DNA from: Acidobacteria bacterium 13_1_20CM_2_55_15
GTDB lineage: Bacteria > Acidobacteriota > Terriglobia > 20CM-2-55-15
Assembly (NCBI GenBank): GCA_001920875.1
Contig: MNKP01000097.1
Location: 1-61,896 of the forward strand
DNA: 61,896 bases
Direction of reading: 5' to 3'
In this document: in pieces, positions 8,269-58,904 of the stretch
Position numbering within the stretch: the first letter of the stretch is position 1
Layout: every line of letters begins with the position of its first letter
Made by a program: the position numbers and the translations under genes
Notes under the pieces: model-generated
Databases searched by the model: none
Told to the model about the DNA's origin: nothing
Seen by the model: the letters and a program-made list of their open reading frames with translations, nothing else

Positions 8269-8514
8269 TAAACTCCTTGAAATCTACAAAAACAGGAGCG
8301 CTCCGGCCAGAAAAACGACCAGAAGACAAAACATCATCATACCAGAAAGAGTCTAGTACCGGGCCGAACTACAGCTTTGGGAATCCGATTGAGATCAACG
8401 CTAAAGTTAAGTGCGGTTCCCTCCGATATATGGGGGAGAGGGCGGGTTGCGGCCTGGGACCATTGGACAGCAGTTGCGCGAACAGAAAGGATTTCTGATT
8501 TGTTTTCTATATTT

Positions 8515-9768
8515 ATGCGTCCAGAGGGCAAGTATCTGCGCTCCATGATGCATATATTCTTGTCGTTGCTACTGCTATTATCGCTCTCGTTCAGCGGCAT
8601 CAGCCAGGTTCCAGAGGTTGTCGCCCCTACTTCTCTCTACGTGAATGTGACCGGAGGCAAAGAAATTATGGGGCTCACTCCGGCCCAGGTCCGCCATGCT
8701 TACGGATTGGATGACATTGCCAATCAAGGAGAAGGGCAGACGATTGGAATCGTCATGCCGCTTCATAATCCAACGATTAAAAGCGATGTAGATGTTTTCA
8801 GCGACAGGTTCGGTTTGCCGCGGTGTGCACCCGCGAACTGCGACTGGCTTGAAACACGCTTCTATCCGGAAGGCGTCGTTCCAGTGCCTGATGTTGCCTG
8901 TTCGTCTTCTTGTTTGCAGTTGTTTCAGTTGGAAAGTGCTCTCGATGTAGAGTGGGCACACGCGATCGCCCCCAAAGCGCGAATTGTATTAGTGGAAACC
9001 AGCCGTTTCGTTGCGGATCTGCTGGATGCCGGTGATGTAGCCATTGCCTCTGGAGCAAGTGTGATATCGATAAGTTGGGCCGTTCCGGAGAACGGCCGCT
9101 CCCAGGCAGACAGACTCGCTTTAAATTCAAGGTTCATTAAGCCGCACGTGGCGTTCGTCGCGGCTGCAGGCGACACCGGTAACTATTCGTGTCTGGGCGT
9201 TGCTTCTTTATGCTGGCCCGCAACTTCGTCTTACGTCACAGGAGTTGGTGGTACCACACTGAAACTCAACTCTCAAGGAGACTACATAACTGAAAATGCT
9301 TGGAAGGGCGGGGGAGGGGGCTTTAGCCTCTATGAGGACGTGCCAGATTACCAGAAACCGTTCCACCCTTATACAAAACGCGGAGTGCCGGACGTCTCCT
9401 ATCACGCGAATCCACAAACTGGATTTGCAGTTTACGATTCGAACCCCTATCTGGGCTCGACCGGCTGGCAAGAAGTCGGCGGAACTAGCGCTGGCGCACC
9501 GCAATGGGCGGCCCTGATGACGATCGCCAATTCCATCCGAAAGGCAGTAGCGCCCAGCAAAGCCACTCTGACCGGAAGTAACCCGCATCTCTACTCGATA
9601 GGAACCGGCCCAGCCTATGCCAGCAACTACCGCGACGTCTCTGCGGGGAACAACACCAACGGGCAATGCGGTCCCCTGTGTTCGGCAACCACGGGCTACG
9701 ACTTCGTAACCGGTCTCGGCAGCCCGAACGCGGCGAATCTCATTAACGCATTGTCGAGCCTACCGTAA
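8515..9768 (+). CDS. Secreted S53 (sedolisin/kumamolisin-like) serine peptidase lacking an obvious prodomain
   Basis: LESALDVEWAHAIAP block and the catalytic-Ser block GGTSAGAPQWAAL. Start moved to ATG 8515 (MRPEGKYLRSMMHIFLSLLLLLSLSFSG, signal-peptide-like). ATG 8545 is an alternative. Confidence 0.7.
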   Translation: MRPEGKYLRSMMHIFLSLLLLLSLSFSGISQVPEVVAPTSLYVNVTGGKEIMGLTPAQVRHAYGLDDIANQGEGQTIGIVMPLHNPTIKSDVDVFSDRFGLPRCAPANCDWLETRFYPEGVVPVPDVACSSSCLQLFQLESALDVEWAHAIAPKARIVLVETSRFVADLLDAGDVAIASGASVISISWAVPENGRSQADRLALNSRFIKPHVAFVAAAGDTGNYSCLGVASLCWPATSSYVTGVGGTTLKLNSQGDYITENAWKGGGGGFSLYEDVPDYQKPFHPYTKRGVPDVSYHANPQTGFAVYDSNPYLGSTGWQEVGGTSAGAPQWAALMTIANSIRKAVAPSKATLTGSNPHLYSIGTGPAYASNYRDVSAGNNTNGQCGPLCSATTGYDFVTGLGSPNAANLINALSSLP

Positions 9769-35131: not shown

Positions 35132-35836
35132 ATGATTGCTGCTGTCTTCTGGTTGCTGCTCGCCACTTCTACGGTTCCGACGGCGCTTCAACGCCAAGGT
35201 ATTTTCAGCGAAGCTGTCGAGGGTTTACTGCCGGAGATTCTCGATCCTGCGACGCGCCGGCCGTTTTCCAACAACATTATTCCGGAAAACACAATGGATC
35301 CCGCGGCCGTTTCCCTTCTCTCTCGATATCCGTTGCCCACATCGGGCGGCACGGCCAACAACTATCGGCGGACCGGAAAAGAGACAGACAATCAGAACCA
35401 GTACGACATGCGCGTCGATCATCGGTTCAGTGCTATGAATTCTCTATTCGTCCGGTACTCATCTTTCAATGCATTTGCCGGATTTGGTACCCAGAGGCCG
35501 AACCGGTTGCGCGATCCCAATCTGCCGAACGGGCAACGCACAACGAGCCGGTACTTTTATACGGATGCTTTTGTTGCCGCGCCGCAATTCACGATCGGCA
35601 CCAGTTCGCGTAATCCGATTCAAGGACCGGGCTTTCAAGATATCGACGTTGCTCTCATCAAGCGCGTTAAGTTCCGTGAAAGATACACGGCCGAAGTCCG
35701 CGCTGAGGTTTTCAATCTGACGAATACACCCCCGCTGGGAGCTCCGAACACGGTTCTCGGATCGCCGGGATTTGGATCGATTACATCCGCCGGCGATCCC
35801 CGTGTGGTCCAACTTGCGGCGAAGATGCATTTTTAA
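35132..35836 (+). pseudogene. TonB-dependent receptor remnant: post-plug segment fused to the C-terminal barrel end, most of the barrel missing
   Basis: STVPTALQRQGIFS...ILDPATRRPFSNNIIPENTMDPAAVSLLSRYPLP...NNY...DMRVDHRFS (region just after the plug) is joined directly to the extreme C-terminal blocks NPIQGPGFQDIDVALIKRVKF...RAEVFNLTNTP...FGSITSA...RVVQLAAKMHF. Only 234 aa, against ~1000+ aa for such receptors. Confidence 0.65.
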
Positions 35837-55555: not shown

Positions 55556-55775
55556 GATGAGTGCTCCTGGTCAGAAAGGTTCATAATAACGCAATGCAGA
55601 TTCGTATTTCACTTCCCCATTTAGTTCAAAGAGCCCGGCGTCCGCCTATGGTCGTCGATCTCTTTTACAGCACGAGTGTGCTCGAAGATGAAACGCTCGG
55701 TTCGATGATGCAGGCGATGGATGTTCTAGCGCACCATATTCGCCCCGAGTTATAGATTGGATATTGGGAAGTGCT

Positions 55776-56261
55776 ATGCGTGTCTACCTCGTTCAACATG
55801 GAAAGGCAAAGCCGGCGGAAGAAGATCCCAGTCGCGGTTTGACCGGCGAGGGTTATGCCGAAGTCAAGCAGGTTGCGGATTTCCTGGCGGGCCTGAGAAT
55901 CACTGTTTCGTTGATTCAGCACAGCGGCAAGAAACGAGCTGAGGAGACAGCACATCTCCTTGCAACCTCGATTCGGTGGACTGCCGGCCCCTGTCACACT
56001 ACGGGACTGGATCCATCGGATGATCCCTCCGTCACGGCAAACTTCCTGAAGGTCTATACGGATGACGTTCTCATTGTGGGCCATCTTCCACACCTCGAGC
56101 GTTTGACTTCGCTCCTGCTGACCGGTAGTCCGGATCGCCGTCCGGTGAAATTTGCCAATGCCGGAGTCGTCTGTATGGAAAAACACCAAAACGGAACCTG
56201 GAGTCTCGTTTGGGCGGTGGTGCCCGAGCTTCTGCAAGCGCAGACGCGCTTGGCTGCCTAG
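55776..56261 (+). CDS. sixA: SixA-type phosphohistidine phosphatase
   Basis: MRVYLVQHGKAKP (RHG-type catalytic His context, here QHG), LTGEG and IVGHLPHL. ATG 55776. Confidence 0.7.
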   Translation: MRVYLVQHGKAKPAEEDPSRGLTGEGYAEVKQVADFLAGLRITVSLIQHSGKKRAEETAHLLATSIRWTAGPCHTTGLDPSDDPSVTANFLKVYTDDVLIVGHLPHLERLTSLLLTGSPDRRPVKFANAGVVCMEKHQNGTWSLVWAVVPELLQAQTRLAA

Positions 56262-56711
56262 GTGATGACGAGACGCGAGACTTCGGCAGGCTGCGTTGTA
56301 TATCGGATGGAGAATGGACTGCCGGAGGTCGCGCTCATTCAACCACACGACCGAAAAGCGTGGGCTCTTCCCAAAGGCCTGATCGAGCGCGGCGAACCAC
56401 CCGAGAAAGCGGCGGAGCGTGAAGCGCGGGAAGAGACAGGTTTGTCGGGTACGATCGTTGGAAAAATCGACACGATCAAATACTCGTATGTCGCTACATG
56501 GGAAAAACCAACGGTTCGCGTTTTCAAGATCGTTACCTTTTATCTATTAAAGTACATGGAGGGCGACCCTTCCCGGCACGATTGGGAAGTGGATCGCGTA
56601 GAATGGTTCCCCATCGAGAAAGCAATATCCAGTGCGACGTATCCCCTGGAGAAAGGAATCCTTAAAAAGGCGAAGCTGCTCATTGCTTCAAACTCGGAGG
56701 AACGAAGATGA
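56262..56711 (+). CDS. NUDIX hydrolase
   Basis: Nudix box: LPKGLIERGEPPEKAAEREAREETGL (GX5EX7REUXEEXGU pattern). Confidence 0.8.
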   Translation: MMTRRETSAGCVVYRMENGLPEVALIQPHDRKAWALPKGLIERGEPPEKAAEREAREETGLSGTIVGKIDTIKYSYVATWEKPTVRVFKIVTFYLLKYMEGDPSRHDWEVDRVEWFPIEKAISSATYPLEKGILKKAKLLIASNSEERR

Positions 56712-58579
56712 AAGAACGGAATACAAAATATTCCCCTCCTCTGCGAGAAGGGGAATGTACTCGTCTGGTGCACAAGTTTGTTTTGTGTGTCTTGTGCCTT
56801 TTTGGGGCGACTCCCTTTTCTTCTTTCGCTCAAGCCATCTATGCGGAGAATCAGATTCCAGCCCGCGGGGTAAGTATCGATTATGTGCTAACAATCAAGA
56901 ATCCAATGTCTCATCTTTACGATGTTGAAATCCAGATCAAGGGGATTCGCGAGTCGTCCGTGTCGGTTTCGATGCCTGCCTGGTCGCCGGGCATCTATCG
57001 CATCGAGAATTATGCTCGCAACGTTCAGGATTTCCGTGCTGTAAACGCACGGAACCAACCCCTGAATTGGGAGCAGACCGACAAGCAAACGTGGCGCATC
57101 GCCAAACAAACTGCCGACGACCTCAATGTGCACTACCAGGTCTTTTCGACTCTGTTGACCGATCAGATGGCCGACGTCGCGCCCCCCTCGATTTTTATGT
57201 ACCTCGCCGGCCAAAAACATGTGCCGTGTAGCGTGAAATACAACACTCCCGGCGGTTGGAAGGTTTATACGGGCCTGGAACGAAGAGGCGACCGTTACTA
57301 CGCCTCCGACTACGACATTTTCATCGATGCGCCTGCCTTCATCGGCAGTGAATTCAAGCTCCTGGAGTTCGAGACAGGCGGTGCACGTCATCATCTCGTA
57401 TTCAGTAAACCCAATATTTCGATGAGTGCGGCGCAGGTTGCAGCGGACATTCAGGACGTCGTGGAAACGGCCATGGCGATTTTCGGAAAGCTTCCATACA
57501 AAGAATACGTATTTTTATTCAAAGTTCAGCCACAGGCCGCGAATAGTGTCGAACATCTGAACTCCGCTCGGATCAGCGTTGGCGAGAACGATTTCGTGAC
57601 GCAGTCCAGTTACAGGCAAGTTCTTTCGACGATTGCTCACGAGTTCTTCCATCTCTGGAATGTGAAGCGAATCCGTCCTGCAGTTCTCGGTCCGTTCGAT
57701 TACACCCGGGAAGTTCATACGCGGCTGCTTTGGATCTCGGAAGGAATCACGAGCTACTACGCCGATCTATTGCTGACACGCGCTGGAATTGATTTGCCCG
57801 CGGAGTACTTCGGCAGGCTGGGGGTGCTCATCGATTCCATGGAACACGCTTCCGGGCGCCGCATGATGAGCGCCGAGGAGGCCAGTTGGAATGCCTGGTT
57901 TCGGAGCGATAACGCAGAAAATACGTCGATCTCGTATTACGTAAAGGGCGAGCTCATTGGATTGCTTCTAGACGTGGAGATTCGCGCGAGGACGAAAAAC
58001 CAGAAAAGTCTCGATGACGTCATGCGCTATCTGATGGAAACTTACGCGACCAAGGGTATCGGATTTCCTGAGGATGGTTTTCTGAAAGCCGTCGAAACGG
58101 TTGCGGGTTCGGACTTCCACGAGTTTTACCATACCGTGGCACAAAGTCACGAACAACTCGACTACAACCGGTATCTGCGGCAGGCGGGACTCACAGTTGA
58201 AGTCTCGTTACAGCCGGCCTCGATATATCTGGGTATCGAATTTGAGCAAGGCGAATCCAATTCAGTCCGGATCCGGCGAGTCGTTGCCAATTCGCCCGCG
58301 GAACGTGCGAAGTTGGATGCCGGAGATTTGCTCATTGCTATGAACGATGAGCGCCTGACTTTTGAAAACTTCCGGAGCCGGCTGCACTCGCACACCATCG
58401 GCGAGACGATTAAACTGACAGTAGTGAGGGGCCAGCGGCTGCTGACAACGAACATCGTGCCCGTCGAGTTTCAGGAAGAACGCTGGCAACTGAACGAGAA
58501 TCCGCGCCCGGCCCCGGAACAAGTTCAATTGAAGAAAGCATGGTTGAGAATTCAAGAGGAGACCAAACAGGGACGATAG
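56708..58579 (+). CDS. M61-family glycyl aminopeptidase-like metallopeptidase with C-terminal PDZ domain
   Basis: SIDYVLTIKNPMSHLYDVEIQI (family N-terminal block), the HEFFHLWNVKRIRP zinc site, and a PDZ-like IRRVVANSPAERAKLDAGDLLIAMN. An in-frame GTG at 56768 (giving MHKFVLCVLCLFGATPFSSFAQA) is an alternative start. Confidence 0.85.
   Translation: MKERNTKYSPPLREGECTRLVHKFVLCVLCLFGATPFSSFAQAIYAENQIPARGVSIDYVLTIKNPMSHLYDVEIQIKGIRESSVSVSMPAWSPGIYRIENYARNVQDFRAVNARNQPLNWEQTDKQTWRIAKQTADDLNVHYQVFSTLLTDQMADVAPPSIFMYLAGQKHVPCSVKYNTPGGWKVYTGLERRGDRYYASDYDIFIDAPAFIGSEFKLLEFETGGARHHLVFSKPNISMSAAQVAADIQDVVETAMAIFGKLPYKEYVFLFKVQPQAANSVEHLNSARISVGENDFVTQSSYRQVLSTIAHEFFHLWNVKRIRPAVLGPFDYTREVHTRLLWISEGITSYYADLLLTRAGIDLPAEYFGRLGVLIDSMEHASGRRMMSAEEASWNAWFRSDNAENTSISYYVKGELIGLLLDVEIRARTKNQKSLDDVMRYLMETYATKGIGFPEDGFLKAVETVAGSDFHEFYHTVAQSHEQLDYNRYLRQAGLTVEVSLQPASIYLGIEFEQGESNSVRIRRVVANSPAERAKLDAGDLLIAMNDERLTFENFRSRLHSHTIGETIKLTVVRGQRLLTTNIVPVEFQEERWQLNENPRPAPEQVQLKKAWLRIQEETKQGR
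56730..56815. repeat. Degenerate F3 palindrome (56730-56756) plus F1 copy (56768-56815) embedded in the 5' end of the M61 ORF
   Basis: ATTCCCCTcctctgcgagaAGGGGAAT and GTGCACAAGTTTGTTTTGTGTGTCTTGTGCCTTTTTGGGGCGACTCCC, read directly and compared with 2736-2762 and 4966-5040. Confidence 0.7.
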
Positions 58580-58583
58580 AGTA

Positions 58584-58811
58584 ATGGAAATCGAAATCAT
58601 CTATTGCCAAGTCTGAAACTACGAACCGAAAGCGGTCAGTTTGACCGAAAAACTTATTACCGAGCTGAAGACCAGAATCAAACGGCTCGTCCTCATACCG
58701 TCGGACGGAGGCCGTTTTGAAGTGAGCATCGATGGGAAACCAGTTTTTTCGAAGCTGGAGACCGGTCGATTTCCCGACTATCAGGAAATCCGAAAGCACA
58801 TCAAGGTGTAA
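58584..58811 (+). CDS. Rdx-family (SelW/SelT/SelH-like) selenoprotein, in-frame TGA (Sec) at 58614-58616
   Basis: ATG 58584. Reads MEIEIIYCQV[TGA]NYEPKAVSLTEKLITELKTRIKRLVLIPSDGGRFEVSIDGKPVFSKLETGRFPDYQEIRKHIKV, stop 58809-58811. The TGA falls at the second redox position of CxxU, and GGxFEV..dG..vfSK...GrFP is the Rdx-family C-terminal pattern. Confidence 0.7.
58633..58647 (+). promoter_or_regulatory. Candidate bacterial SECIS apical hairpin CGGTCA-gtt-TGACCG
   Basis: Read directly. Begins 17 nt 3' of the TGA, with a GU-containing loop. Only a short stem could be seen by eye. Confidence 0.35.
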
Positions 58812-58824
58812 CGGCGCTCTATAT

Positions 58825-58873
58825 CCTCTCCCTCTGGGAGAGGTCGGCGCGACAGCCAGCGGGCTGCCGCGCC
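58825..58873. terminator. Double hairpin between convergent genes (an F2-type CCTCTCCC-tct-GGGAGAGG, then GGCGCGACAGCC-agcg-GGCTGCCGCGCC)
   Basis: Read directly. Lies between the selenoprotein stop (58811) and the TPR-protein stop (58905). Confidence 0.7.
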
Positions 58874-58904
58874 GGGTGAGAGTCACAGGTCTCGTCAAAT
58901 TTCA

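What the first reader, a model, noticed from the sequence alone, without database searches (positions are those of the whole stretch)
58584..58811. Hidden selenoprotein: Rdx/SelW-like gene with TGA at the CxxU redox position
The six-frame track shows nothing on the + strand here, because a TGA at 58614 splits the frame. Read through, ATG 58584 to TAA 58811 gives a 75-codon product: MEIEIIYCQV-U-NYEPKAVSLTEKLITEL...LIPSDGGRFEVSIDGKPVFSKLETGRFPDYQEIRKHIKV.

In the Rdx family (SelW/SelT/SelH and bacterial SelW-like proteins), the redox motif CxxC/CxxU follows the first beta strand, and the C-terminal half carries GGxFEV...G..i.SK...G.FP. Here the TGA sits exactly at the U/C position and both halves fit the family. 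An accidental stop is therefore unlikely.

A short hairpin (CGGTCA-gtt-TGACCG, 58633-58647) lies at a plausible SECIS distance. The only competing ORF (58410-58898, minus strand) has no recognisable features.
Basis: partly seen in the sequence, partly recalled or inferred. Interest (0 to 1): 0.7.

Follow-up and report, generated by a model that had tools for sequence, protein, structure and literature searches.

The report
SelW-like selenoprotein gene, mis-annotated
This is a real but ordinary 75-codon gene for a small SelW-like redox protein whose in-frame TGA almost certainly encodes selenocysteine; the family has been known in bacteria for about 20 years and gene callers routinely truncate or miss it.

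Summary
ATG 58584 to TAA 58811 is one frame interrupted only by TGA 58614-58616.

- **Family:** read through, the product matches Pfam Rdx over its full length (75 bits, cut-off 22.6) and TIGR02174. The TGA aligns with the second Cys of CxxC in solved bacterial Rdx structures.
- **Conservation:** the 80 best-matching species-level genomes kept by the scan (Acidobacteriota, Planctomycetota, Verrucomicrobiota, Chloroflexota and others) all have TGA at this column. Coding-type conservation holds on both sides.
- **SECIS:** the hairpin 58633-58647 is conserved. 94% of cells pair, against 20-44% in slid controls. Compensatory changes fall at synonymous third-codon positions, and the loop G is invariant.
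- **Not an error:** the identical gene, TGA included, occurs in four independent assemblies. TGA ends 13 of 35 other window genes, so the standard code applies.
- **Untested:** selA, selB, selC and selD of this genome could not be examined. None lies in the window. Seven distant relatives have Sec-containing selD 0.1-4 kb downstream of the SelW-like gene, and two of them also have selA, selB and tRNA-Sec.

Novelty is nil and interest is low. Side notes: an M61 peptidase-SelW gene pair is conserved in Terriglobia, and SelW-selD are linked in other phyla.

The parts
58584..58811 (+). Full-length SelW-like (Rdx family) selenoprotein gene: 74 sense codons plus one UGA (Sec, codon 11), then a TAA stop
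   Evidence: sequence and translation. Pfam Rdx 75 bits, profile positions 1-73 of 74. TIGR02174 66.5 bits against a cut-off of 34.2; same architecture in 80 genomes; the identical 228 nt occur in 4 independent assemblies.
58605..58616 (+). CxxU redox motif (TGC-CAA-GTC-TGA = Cys8-Gln-Val-Sec11)
   Evidence: the first codon is TGC or TGT in 80/81 sequences and the fourth is TGA in 81/81; the motif aligns with CrqC and CtqC of the solved bacterial Rdx proteins 2p0g and 2fa8.
58614..58616 (+). In-frame UGA, inferred selenocysteine codon
   Evidence: TGA is otherwise an ordinary stop codon in this genome (13 of 35 Pfam-supported genes).
58633..58647 (+). Bacterial SECIS-like hairpin: 6-bp stem (58633-58638 with 58642-58647) and GUU loop (58639-58641). 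The loop G lies 22 nt after the UGA.
   Evidence: 94.2% of cells paired against 20-44% for slid partners. Pair 21/33 shows CG:53, GC:12, UA:5, and both columns are third-codon positions. Pair 23/31 shows UA:49, UG:26, CG:3; loop G26 is invariant and U27 is at least 90% conserved.: -7.8 kcal/mol, z = -3.65, and it is the MFE in the 42-nt context; the alternative hairpin is not conserved.
58641..58811 (+). 56-aa TTG-started ORF: the truncated gene model that gene callers produce. It is not the real product.
   Evidence: about 100 orthologues are stored as 54-56 aa fragments. JGI calls this fragment, while the NCBI assemblies call nothing here.
56708..58579 (+). Upstream co-oriented M61 peptidase (+PDZ) gene. 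Its stop lies 4 nt before the SelW-like ATG, so it is a likely operon partner.
   Evidence: Pfam Peptidase_M61_N, Peptidase_M61, PDZ_2; the same adjacency holds in all 12 Acidobacteriota/Terriglobia loci L001-L012, with M61 identity of 49-79%; no promoter-like or + strand terminator-like site lies between the two genes.
58825..58875 (.). Two G+C-rich hairpins between the convergent SelW-like and TPR genes. This is a possible bidirectional terminator region, but it lacks a T-run.
   Evidence: 96-nt intergenic stretch at -45.2 kcal/mol, z = -3.56. One search did not call it with the T-run rule.
58410..58898 (-). Antisense shadow ORF (162 aa), not a gene
   Evidence: no Pfam family at E <= 1. It overlaps the 3' end of the M61 gene and the whole SelW-like gene.

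Best explanation
window 58584-58811 (+) encodes a 74-residue SelW-like (Rdx family) selenoprotein with an N-terminal Cys8-x-x-Sec11 redox motif.

Proposed mechanism:
1. The gene is probably co-transcribed with the upstream M61 peptidase gene.
2. During translation the ribosome meets UGA 58614-58616.
3. The mRNA hairpin 58633-58647 (6-bp stem, GUU loop) acts as a bacterial SECIS. It binds SelB-GTP-Sec-tRNA(Sec), so selenocysteine is inserted instead of termination.
4. The product is a small thioredoxin-fold protein. Its Cys/Sec pair cycles between a selenolate/thiol state and a selenenylsulfide state, giving a thiol-dependent redox function. The physiological substrate is unknown.

Shown here: the frame, family membership, the position of the UGA in the motif, conservation of the UGA, coding-type conservation on both sides, and conservation plus covariation of the hairpin.

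Inferred: SelB binding, actual Se incorporation, the redox chemistry and co-transcription.
For: - **Family:** Pfam Rdx 75 bits (cut-off 22.6) over profile positions 1-73 of 74. The N-terminal 19 residues, which include the UGA, add about 25 bits over the 56-aa fragment. TIGR02174 CXXU_selWTH scores 66.5 bits against a cut-off of 34.2.
- **Structures:** six solved bacterial Rdx proteins and mouse SelW match. The U column aligns with the second Cys of CxxC.
- **UGA conservation:** TGA is at this column in 81/81 sequences, drawn from 80 species-level genomes of several phyla. The first Cys is kept in 80/81.
- **Coding signature:** codons 1-10 and 12-19 vary most at position 3 and least at position 2. 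Synonymous changes are common among the Terriglobia orthologues.
- **Hairpin:** 94.2% of cells pair against 20-44% for slid controls. G-C, C-G and U-A exchanges occur at two third-codon positions, and the loop G is invariant. It is the MFE in the 42-nt context, with z = -3.65 when folded alone.
- **Agreement with the published bSECIS description:** a 5/6-bp hairpin a few nt after the UGA, with an invariant loop guanosine (PMC4607533, PMC1088965).
- **Not an artefact:** the gene is identical, TGA included, in 4 independent assemblies. TGA is a normal stop elsewhere in the window.
- **Relatives decode Sec:** tRNA-SeC, selA, selB and Sec-containing selD lie next to the SelW-like gene in L016 and L027. 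Sec-selD lies 90-140 nt downstream in L029, L049 and L054.
Against: - The Sec machinery (selA, selB, selC, selD) was not found in the 62-kb window or in the about 7 kb beyond its right end. It could not be looked for in the rest of this genome.
- No Rfam family matches the hairpin. Absence of a match only means that none of Rfam's curated families reached threshold here.
- In a 65-nt context the single-sequence MFE fold prefers another pairing, and its z-score is only -1.35.
- NF041051 falls just below its cut-off (85.9 against 88). That is expected for a model named after a Campylobacter-type lineage.
- There is no experimental evidence of Se incorporation. Even the 2026 review lists the bacterial family as 'predicted with high confidence' rather than verified (PMC13188914).
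Confidence: 0.93

Rival explanations
1. The TGA is a genuine stop. The functional product is the 56-aa fragment started at TTG 58641, or the gene is a decaying pseudogene of a Cys-type Rdx gene.
For: Gene callers produce exactly this 54-56 aa model for about 100 orthologues. The Sec machinery was not seen in the window.
Against: The fragment lacks the first beta-strand region and the CxxC/U motif that define the family; it covers only profile positions 20-73. The 19 codons upstream of the TTG are conserved with a coding signature in 81 sequences across phyla. A pseudogene would not keep TGA, rather than any other codon, in 81/81 genomes, and it would not keep a covarying hairpin.
Confidence: 0.03
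2. TGA is read as a standard amino acid (Trp or Gly) because the organism uses an alternative genetic code, as the 'W' in database entries P0001 and P0032 would suggest.
For: P0001 (CQVW) and P0032 (CAMW) are stored with Trp at this column.
Against: 13 of 35 Pfam-supported genes in the window end in TGA, and full-length domain matches are obtained under code 11. The column is Cys in true non-Sec homologues, not Trp or Gly. The W entries are most simply an artefact of the translation table used for those contigs.
Confidence: 0.01
3. The TGA is a sequencing or assembly error for TGC/TGT, so the real protein is the CxxC form.
For: TGA differs from TGC/TGT by a single base, and CxxC forms of the family exist (P0099, P0104).
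Against: The identical 228-nt sequence occurs in four independently assembled contigs from ENA, NCBI (two assemblies) and JGI. TGA is present in 80 other genomes.
Confidence: 0.005
4. The real gene here is the 162-aa minus-strand ORF 58410-58898, and the + strand similarity is incidental.
For: It is the longest uninterrupted ORF over these coordinates.
Against: It has no Pfam match at E <= 1. It overlaps the well-supported M61 gene's 3' end. The + strand frame has E = 5.5e-21 to Rdx and cross-phylum conservation.
Confidence: 0.005

Closest known systems
Bacterial SelW-like selenoproteins (Rdx family, Pfam PF10262 / TIGR02174 CXXU_selWTH), as described in the Sargasso Sea and GOS selenoproteome studies (PMC1088965, PMC2398784, PMC1794560)
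   Same: The size is the same (about 75 aa) and the N-terminal CxxU motif has Sec as the second redox residue. A small SECIS hairpin with a loop G lies just downstream of the UGA. Sec forms greatly outnumber Cys forms: all 80 best genome hits here are Sec, which agrees with 427 Sec against 56 Cys in GOS. The gene is typically truncated or missed by annotation (PMC4607533).
   Different: Nothing essential differs. This copy comes from a soil Acidobacteriota/Terriglobia lineage rather than marine plankton, and it is paired with an M61 peptidase gene. That neighbourhood was not mentioned in the passages of the papers I read.
Solved bacterial Rdx/SelW-related CxxC proteins (PDB 2p0g 'Selenoprotein W-related protein', 2fa8 Atu0228, 3dex, 2oka, 2obk, 2ojl)
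   Same: Ungapped alignment over residues 2-74 (E = 2e-9 to 5e-6). The redox motif sits at the same position.
   Different: Those proteins have Cys, not Sec, at the second motif position, and they are about 30 residues longer (103-108 aa).
Mammalian selenoprotein W (PDB 2npb) and the eukaryotic SelT/SelH/Rdx12 proteins
   Same: Same Pfam family and CxxU motif. There is a weak but significant sequence match to mouse SelW (E = 8.6e-4).
   Different: Eukaryotic Sec insertion uses a 3'-UTR kink-turn SECIS and SBP2/eEFSec. Here the element is a coding-region hairpin of the bacterial SelB type, directly after the UGA.
E. coli fdhF minimal SECIS (upper stem-loop bound by SelB)
   Same: A short hairpin follows the UGA within the coding sequence, with a conserved G-U at the start of the loop. 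Here these are G26 and U27 counted from the U of UGA. From my own knowledge of the fdhF element, the corresponding bases there are G23 and U24.
   Different: No bulged U is evident, the loop is 3 nt rather than 4, and the loop sits one codon further from the UGA. Binding to SelB is inferred, not tested.

Membership tests
Rdx / SelW-like family (PF10262, TIGR02174) | Full-length match to the family HMM above the curated cut-off | tested here: met
   PF10262 75 bits (cut-off 22.6), residues 2-74 on profile positions 1-73 of 74. TIGR02174 66.5 bits (cut-off 34.2). The lineage-specific equivalog NF041051 scores 85.9, just under its cut-off of 88.
Rdx / SelW-like family (PF10262, TIGR02174) | N-terminal CxxC/CxxU redox motif, with the Sec/Cys column at the second position | tested here: met
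   Cys8-x-x-UGA11; it aligns with CxxC of 2p0g and 2fa8; the Cys forms P0099 (CHEC) and P0104 (CAVC) share the same column.
Rdx / SelW-like family (PF10262, TIGR02174) | Thioredoxin-like fold with the motif following the first beta strand | not tested
   No structure was predicted. The fold is inferred from ungapped sequence homology to six solved Rdx-family structures.
Bacterial selenoprotein (SelB/SECIS-dependent UGA recoding) | In-frame UGA at a column occupied by Cys in homologues, conserved among orthologues, with coding conservation on both sides | tested here: met
   TGA in 81/81; codon-position entropy follows pos3 > pos1 > pos2 both before and after the TGA. Cys homologues exist.
Bacterial selenoprotein (SelB/SECIS-dependent UGA recoding) | SECIS hairpin shortly downstream of the UGA with a conserved G in a small apical loop | tested here: met
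   the 6-bp stem is 94% paired, with compensatory changes at synonymous sites, and loop G26 is invariant. This matches the description in PMC4607533 and PMC1088965. bSECISearch itself was not available, and no Rfam family matched.
Bacterial selenoprotein (SelB/SECIS-dependent UGA recoding) | The same genome encodes selA, selB, selC (tRNA-Sec) and selD | not testable with these tools
   None lies in the window or the flank seen, and the rest of the genome could not be searched. In relatives the machinery lies next to the orthologous gene: L016 and L027 carry selD, selA, selB and tRNA-SeC, while L029, L049, L054, L056 and L079 carry selD.
Bacterial selenoprotein (SelB/SECIS-dependent UGA recoding) | Selenium demonstrably incorporated at the UGA position | not testable with these tools
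   This needs 75Se labelling or mass spectrometry.

The most novel reading that the evidence does not exclude
The conserved gene neighbourhoods say something new about the still-unknown function of bacterial SelW-like proteins. In Planctomycetota, Verrucomicrobiota and Chloroflexota the gene sits directly upstream of Sec-containing selD, or of a whole selD-selA-selB-tRNA-Sec cluster. That would fit a role in handling or delivering reduced selenium to selenophosphate synthetase, or a role as the 'anchor' selenoprotein that travels with the Sec trait. In Terriglobia the gene has been recruited into a conserved operon with an M61 peptidase carrying a PDZ domain, which suggests a lineage-specific redox partnership.
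Probability: 0.2. Interest if true: 0.45.

Novelty: already known. Interest (0 to 1): 0.18.

Why it matters
The main value is practical. The locus needs a corrected gene model: 58584-58811 with Sec at codon 11. The two NCBI assemblies that carry this sequence call no gene here, and JGI calls only a 56-aa fragment.

The result also marks this soil Acidobacteriota population as a probable selenocysteine user. It adds to the evidence that Sec, not Cys, is the usual state of this family, since all 80 best genome hits carry TGA.

It does not change what is known about selenoproteins. The two gene-neighbourhood patterns (M61 peptidase-SelW in Terriglobia, SelW-selD elsewhere) are the only parts that could lead to a new hypothesis about function.

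Tried and rejected
- **Rfam.** At gathering threshold on the whole window, and at E <= 10 on 58540-58860, there was no SECIS family. The only hit was a chance-level CRISPR-DR30 match (E = 4.7) on the minus strand.
- **Alternative hairpin.** The single-sequence 65-nt fold preferred ACCG/CGGU. Tested on the alignment, that hairpin is not conserved (56% paired, the same as shuffles), so I rejected it.
- **Sec machinery in the window.** ARAGORN found no tRNA. Pfam on 30 large ORFs, the precomputed Pfam of the right-hand genes and tblastn with E. coli SelA, SelB and SelD found nothing.
- **Extending beyond the window.** An exact-protein look-up failed for the LptF/G gene. The phosphorylase gene returned only a 7.9-kb contig lying inside the window.
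- **Other selenoprotein genes in the window.** A scan for TGA-joined ORF pairs found no other convincing candidate. The other hits are ordinary genes that start after an upstream TGA, or low-complexity noise.
- **Rejected readings.** I considered and rejected an alternative genetic code, an assembly error, a pseudogene and the minus-strand ORF (see the rival explanations).
- **Structure prediction.** I did not run it, because sequence homology to six solved family members already fixes the fold assignment well enough for the question asked.

Full report
**1. The observation**

ATG is at 58584, and the frame is interrupted once, by TGA at 58614-58616, and closed by TAA at 58809-58811. The product is MEIEIIYCQV-U-NYEPKAVSLTEKLITELKTRIKRLVLIPSDGGRFEVSIDGKPVFSKLETGRFPDYQEIRKHIKV.

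The Cys codon of the motif is TGC at 58605-58607. The inverted repeat CGGTCA-GTT-TGACCG lies at 58633-58647. The ORF list shows what an automatic caller sees here:
- a 56-aa TTG-started ORF (58641-58811) on the + strand;
- a 162-aa ORF (58410-58898) on the minus strand.

**2. Family membership**

With Sec written as Cys so that HMMER can score it, the 75-residue product matches Pfam Rdx (PF10262). The score is 75 bits (E = 5.5e-21, cut-off 22.6), over residues 2-74 on profile positions 1-73 of 74. The 56-aa fragment alone scores 49.4 bits on profile positions 20-73. The 19 residues that include the TGA therefore contribute about 25 bits and complete the domain.

NCBIfam TIGR02174 (CXXU_selWTH) scores 66.5 bits against a cut-off of 34.2. 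The lineage-specific equivalog NF041051 scores 85.9, just below its cut-off of 88. The minus-strand ORF has no Pfam match at E <= 1.

Against PDB sequences, the protein aligns without gaps to six bacterial Rdx-family structures (2p0g, 2fa8, 3dex, 2oka, 2obk, 2ojl; E = 2e-9 to 5e-6). It also aligns more weakly to human C17orf37 (2ljk) and mouse SelW (2npb, E = 8.6e-4). In the printed alignments the U column falls on the second Cys of CxxC.

**3. Comparative evidence that the TGA is decoded**

*Protein database.* A search returned 137 relatives. About 100 of the closest are 54-56 aa fragments that begin just after the TGA column, and many are labelled 'selenoprotein W-related protein' (JGI) or 'selenoprotein' (NCBI). 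Four are full length:
- P0099 (CHEC) and P0104 (CAVC) are true Cys forms.
- P0001 (CQVW) and P0032 (CAMW) carry Trp at the column. The simplest explanation is a TGA translated under another code table.

*Genome scan.* A scan of one genome per GTDB species found 398 confirmed relatives and kept the best 80 loci. They come from Acidobacteriota/Terriglobia (the closest, up to 88% identity), Planctomycetota, Verrucomicrobiota, Chloroflexota, Latescibacterota and others. In-frame extraction shows TGA at the U column in 81 of 81 sequences. The first motif codon is TGC or TGT in 80 of 81.

*Coding signature.* The peptide upstream of the TGA and the eight codons between the TGA and the fragment's TTG 'start' are conserved. 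Mean column entropy among the 13 Acidobacteriota sequences is shown below.

| Codons | Position 1 | Position 2 | Position 3 |
|---|---|---|---|
| 1-10 | 0.35 | 0.06 | 0.70 |
| 12-19 | 0.21 | 0.19 | 0.71 |

Synonymous differences from the window are frequent (3-8 per orthologue). This pattern is not compatible with an untranslated leader or a dead N-terminus.

**4. Artefacts excluded**

The exact 228-nt gene, TGA included, is present in four independently assembled contigs: ENA ERZ27285545, NCBI GCA_001917925.1, NCBI GCA_001918885.1 and JGI 3300026298. Of 35 Pfam-supported genes in the window, 13 end in TGA, so this organism uses TGA as a normal stop. The standard code applies.

**5. The SECIS element**

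The 60 nt starting at the TGA align without gaps in all 81 sequences.

- 94.2% of cells form a standard pair.
- Only 20-44% pair when the 3' partners are slid by 1-3 columns.
- 0 of 500 column shuffles reach the observed pairing or covariation score.

*Compensatory changes.*
- Pair 21/33 is C-G in 53 sequences, G-C in 12 and U-A in 5. Both columns are third-codon positions (Ala GCN and Thr/Ala NCN), so this exchange is invisible to the protein and must reflect RNA pairing.
- Pair 23/31 is U-A in 49, U-G in 26 and C-G in 3.

*Loop.* The loop begins with an invariant G (column 26), followed by U in at least 90% of sequences.

*Thermodynamics.* Folded alone, or in a 42-nt context, the hairpin is the minimum-energy structure: -7.8 kcal/mol, with z = -3.65 for the 21-mer. 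The same fold appears in relatives carrying the compensatory variants.

*The competing fold.* A 65-nt fold had preferred a different local hairpin. That alternative is not conserved, at 56% paired, which equals the shuffles.

*Agreement with the literature.* The architecture matches published descriptions of bacterial SECIS elements. These describe a 5/6-bp hairpin a few nucleotides after the UGA with an invariant loop guanosine, resembling the minimal E. coli fdhF element (PMC4607533). [quoted passage not shown] No Rfam family matched.

**6. Sec machinery**

This is the one refutation criterion I could not test for this genome. The window has no tRNA genes. SelA, SelB and SelD were also not found:
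- not among 30 large ORFs scanned with Pfam;
- not among the precomputed Pfam assignments for the right-hand 15 kb and about 7 kb beyond the window;
- not by tblastn with E. coli SelA, SelB and SelD.

Sixty-two kb of a multi-megabase genome says little either way.

Relatives do show the machinery, sometimes right beside the orthologous gene:
- L016 (Planctomycetota) has SelW-like, selD, selB, selA and tRNA-SeC in a row.
- L027 (Verrucomicrobia) has SelW-like, tRNA-SeC, selD, selA and selB.
- L029, L049 and L054 have selD 90-140 nt downstream.
- L056 and L079 have selD within 4 kb.

In all seven loci the selD gene itself carries an in-frame stop at the E. coli Cys17 column, so it too is a Sec form.

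**7. Context in the window**

The SelW-like ATG lies 4 nt after the stop of a 623-aa M61 peptidase with PDZ domains (56708-58579). No promoter-like or + strand terminator-like site lies between them. The same M61-then-SelW order is found in all 12 Acidobacteriota/Terriglobia loci, even where the M61 protein is only 49% identical. This is a conserved gene pair and probably an operon.

Downstream, two strong G+C-rich hairpins (58825-58875; the 96-nt intergenic stretch folds at -45.2 kcal/mol, z = -3.56) separate the gene from a convergent TPR-repeat gene.

**8. Mechanism**

*Shown:* a conserved CxxU Rdx-family reading frame, and a conserved, covarying hairpin with its loop G 22 nt after the UGA.

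*Inferred from established knowledge of bacterial Sec insertion:* SelB-GTP-Sec-tRNA(Sec) binds the hairpin as the ribosome approaches and delivers Sec to the UGA.

*Inferred from the family:* the Cys8/Sec11 pair forms a reversible selenenylsulfide in a thioredoxin-like fold and acts in thiol-dependent redox chemistry.

The physiological substrate is unknown for every bacterial member of this family.

**9. Comparison with what is known, and novelty**

Bacterial SelW-like CxxU selenoproteins have been described repeatedly:
- They were also the most abundant in GOS, with 427 Sec forms against 56 Cys forms (PMC2398784).
- They have few Cys homologues in Sec-using organisms (PMC1794560).
- They appear in the 2022 and 2026 reviews as PF10262 / CxxU, 'predicted with high confidence' (PMC9312934, PMC13188914).
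- SelW genes in particular are noted as often missed entirely by genome annotation (PMC4607533).

The present gene meets every defining feature I could test. It is an ordinary member of a known family, and its orthologues already carry selenoprotein names in public databases. The only new element at this locus is the corrected gene model.

The two neighbourhood patterns (M61-SelW in Terriglobia, SelW-selD elsewhere) were not mentioned in the passages I read. I did not search for them systematically.

**10. Verdict**

My confidence that this is a genuine Sec-encoding SelW-like gene is 0.93. Novelty: already known. Interest: low (0.18).

Noticed in passing
window 56708-58811; L001-L012: The M61 peptidase (+PDZ) gene sits directly upstream of the SelW-like gene in the window (4-nt gap). 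The same order holds in all 12 Acidobacteriota/Terriglobia loci, although M61 identity falls to 49%. This is a conserved gene pair with no obvious functional rationale.
   Followed up: partly
L016 9402-14804; L027 4327-9330; L029, L049, L054, L056, L079: In 7 of 80 relatives, selD lies 0.1-4 kb downstream of the SelW-like gene on the same strand. Two of them carry the whole selD/selA/selB/tRNA-SeC set. By a rough estimate of mine, fewer than one such adjacency would be expected by chance among 80 loci. All seven selD genes have an in-frame stop at the catalytic Cys17 column, so they are Sec forms too.
   Followed up: partly
L059 10022-10033: In this MAG, labelled Singulisphaera sp. in the record, the first Cys codon of the motif is also TGA (TGA-x-x-TGA), whereas the otherwise very similar L036 has TGC. 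It is either a UxxU variant or a sequencing error or inactivating mutation.
   Followed up: no
L082 11873-12197; L083 11873-12197; L084 5633-5803: Annotation state of this exact gene: the two NCBI MAG assemblies call nothing in the gap, and JGI calls the 56-aa fragment with an Rdx hit. The database entries P0001 and P0032 translate the TGA as Trp.
   Followed up: yes
window 55665-56711: The 227-aa minus-strand ORF 55665-56348 is probably a shadow ORF. Gene calls on identical contigs instead place two + strand genes here: a His_Phos_1-like gene at about 55776-56261 and a NUDIX gene at about 56265-56711. The NUDIX gene overlaps the M61 start by 4 nt. The operon may therefore be His_Phos-NUDIX-M61-SelW.
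   Followed up: partly
window 8377-9768 (+): A 463-aa ORF with no Pfam family at E <= 1e-5. Its size resembles SelA, but tblastn with E. coli SelA found nothing in the window.
   Followed up: partly
window 35132-35836 (+): In this 234-aa ORF the best-matching stretch covers only the last ~115 positions (723-838) of the 838-position OMP_b-brl_4 profile. It may be a truncated or fragmented outer-membrane beta-barrel gene, or a short paralogue.
   Followed up: no
window 58825-58875: Two adjacent G+C-rich hairpins lie between the convergent SelW-like and TPR genes (the 96-nt stretch folds at -45.2 kcal/mol, z = -3.56). No T-run follows, so the terminator scan did not call them.
   Followed up: partly
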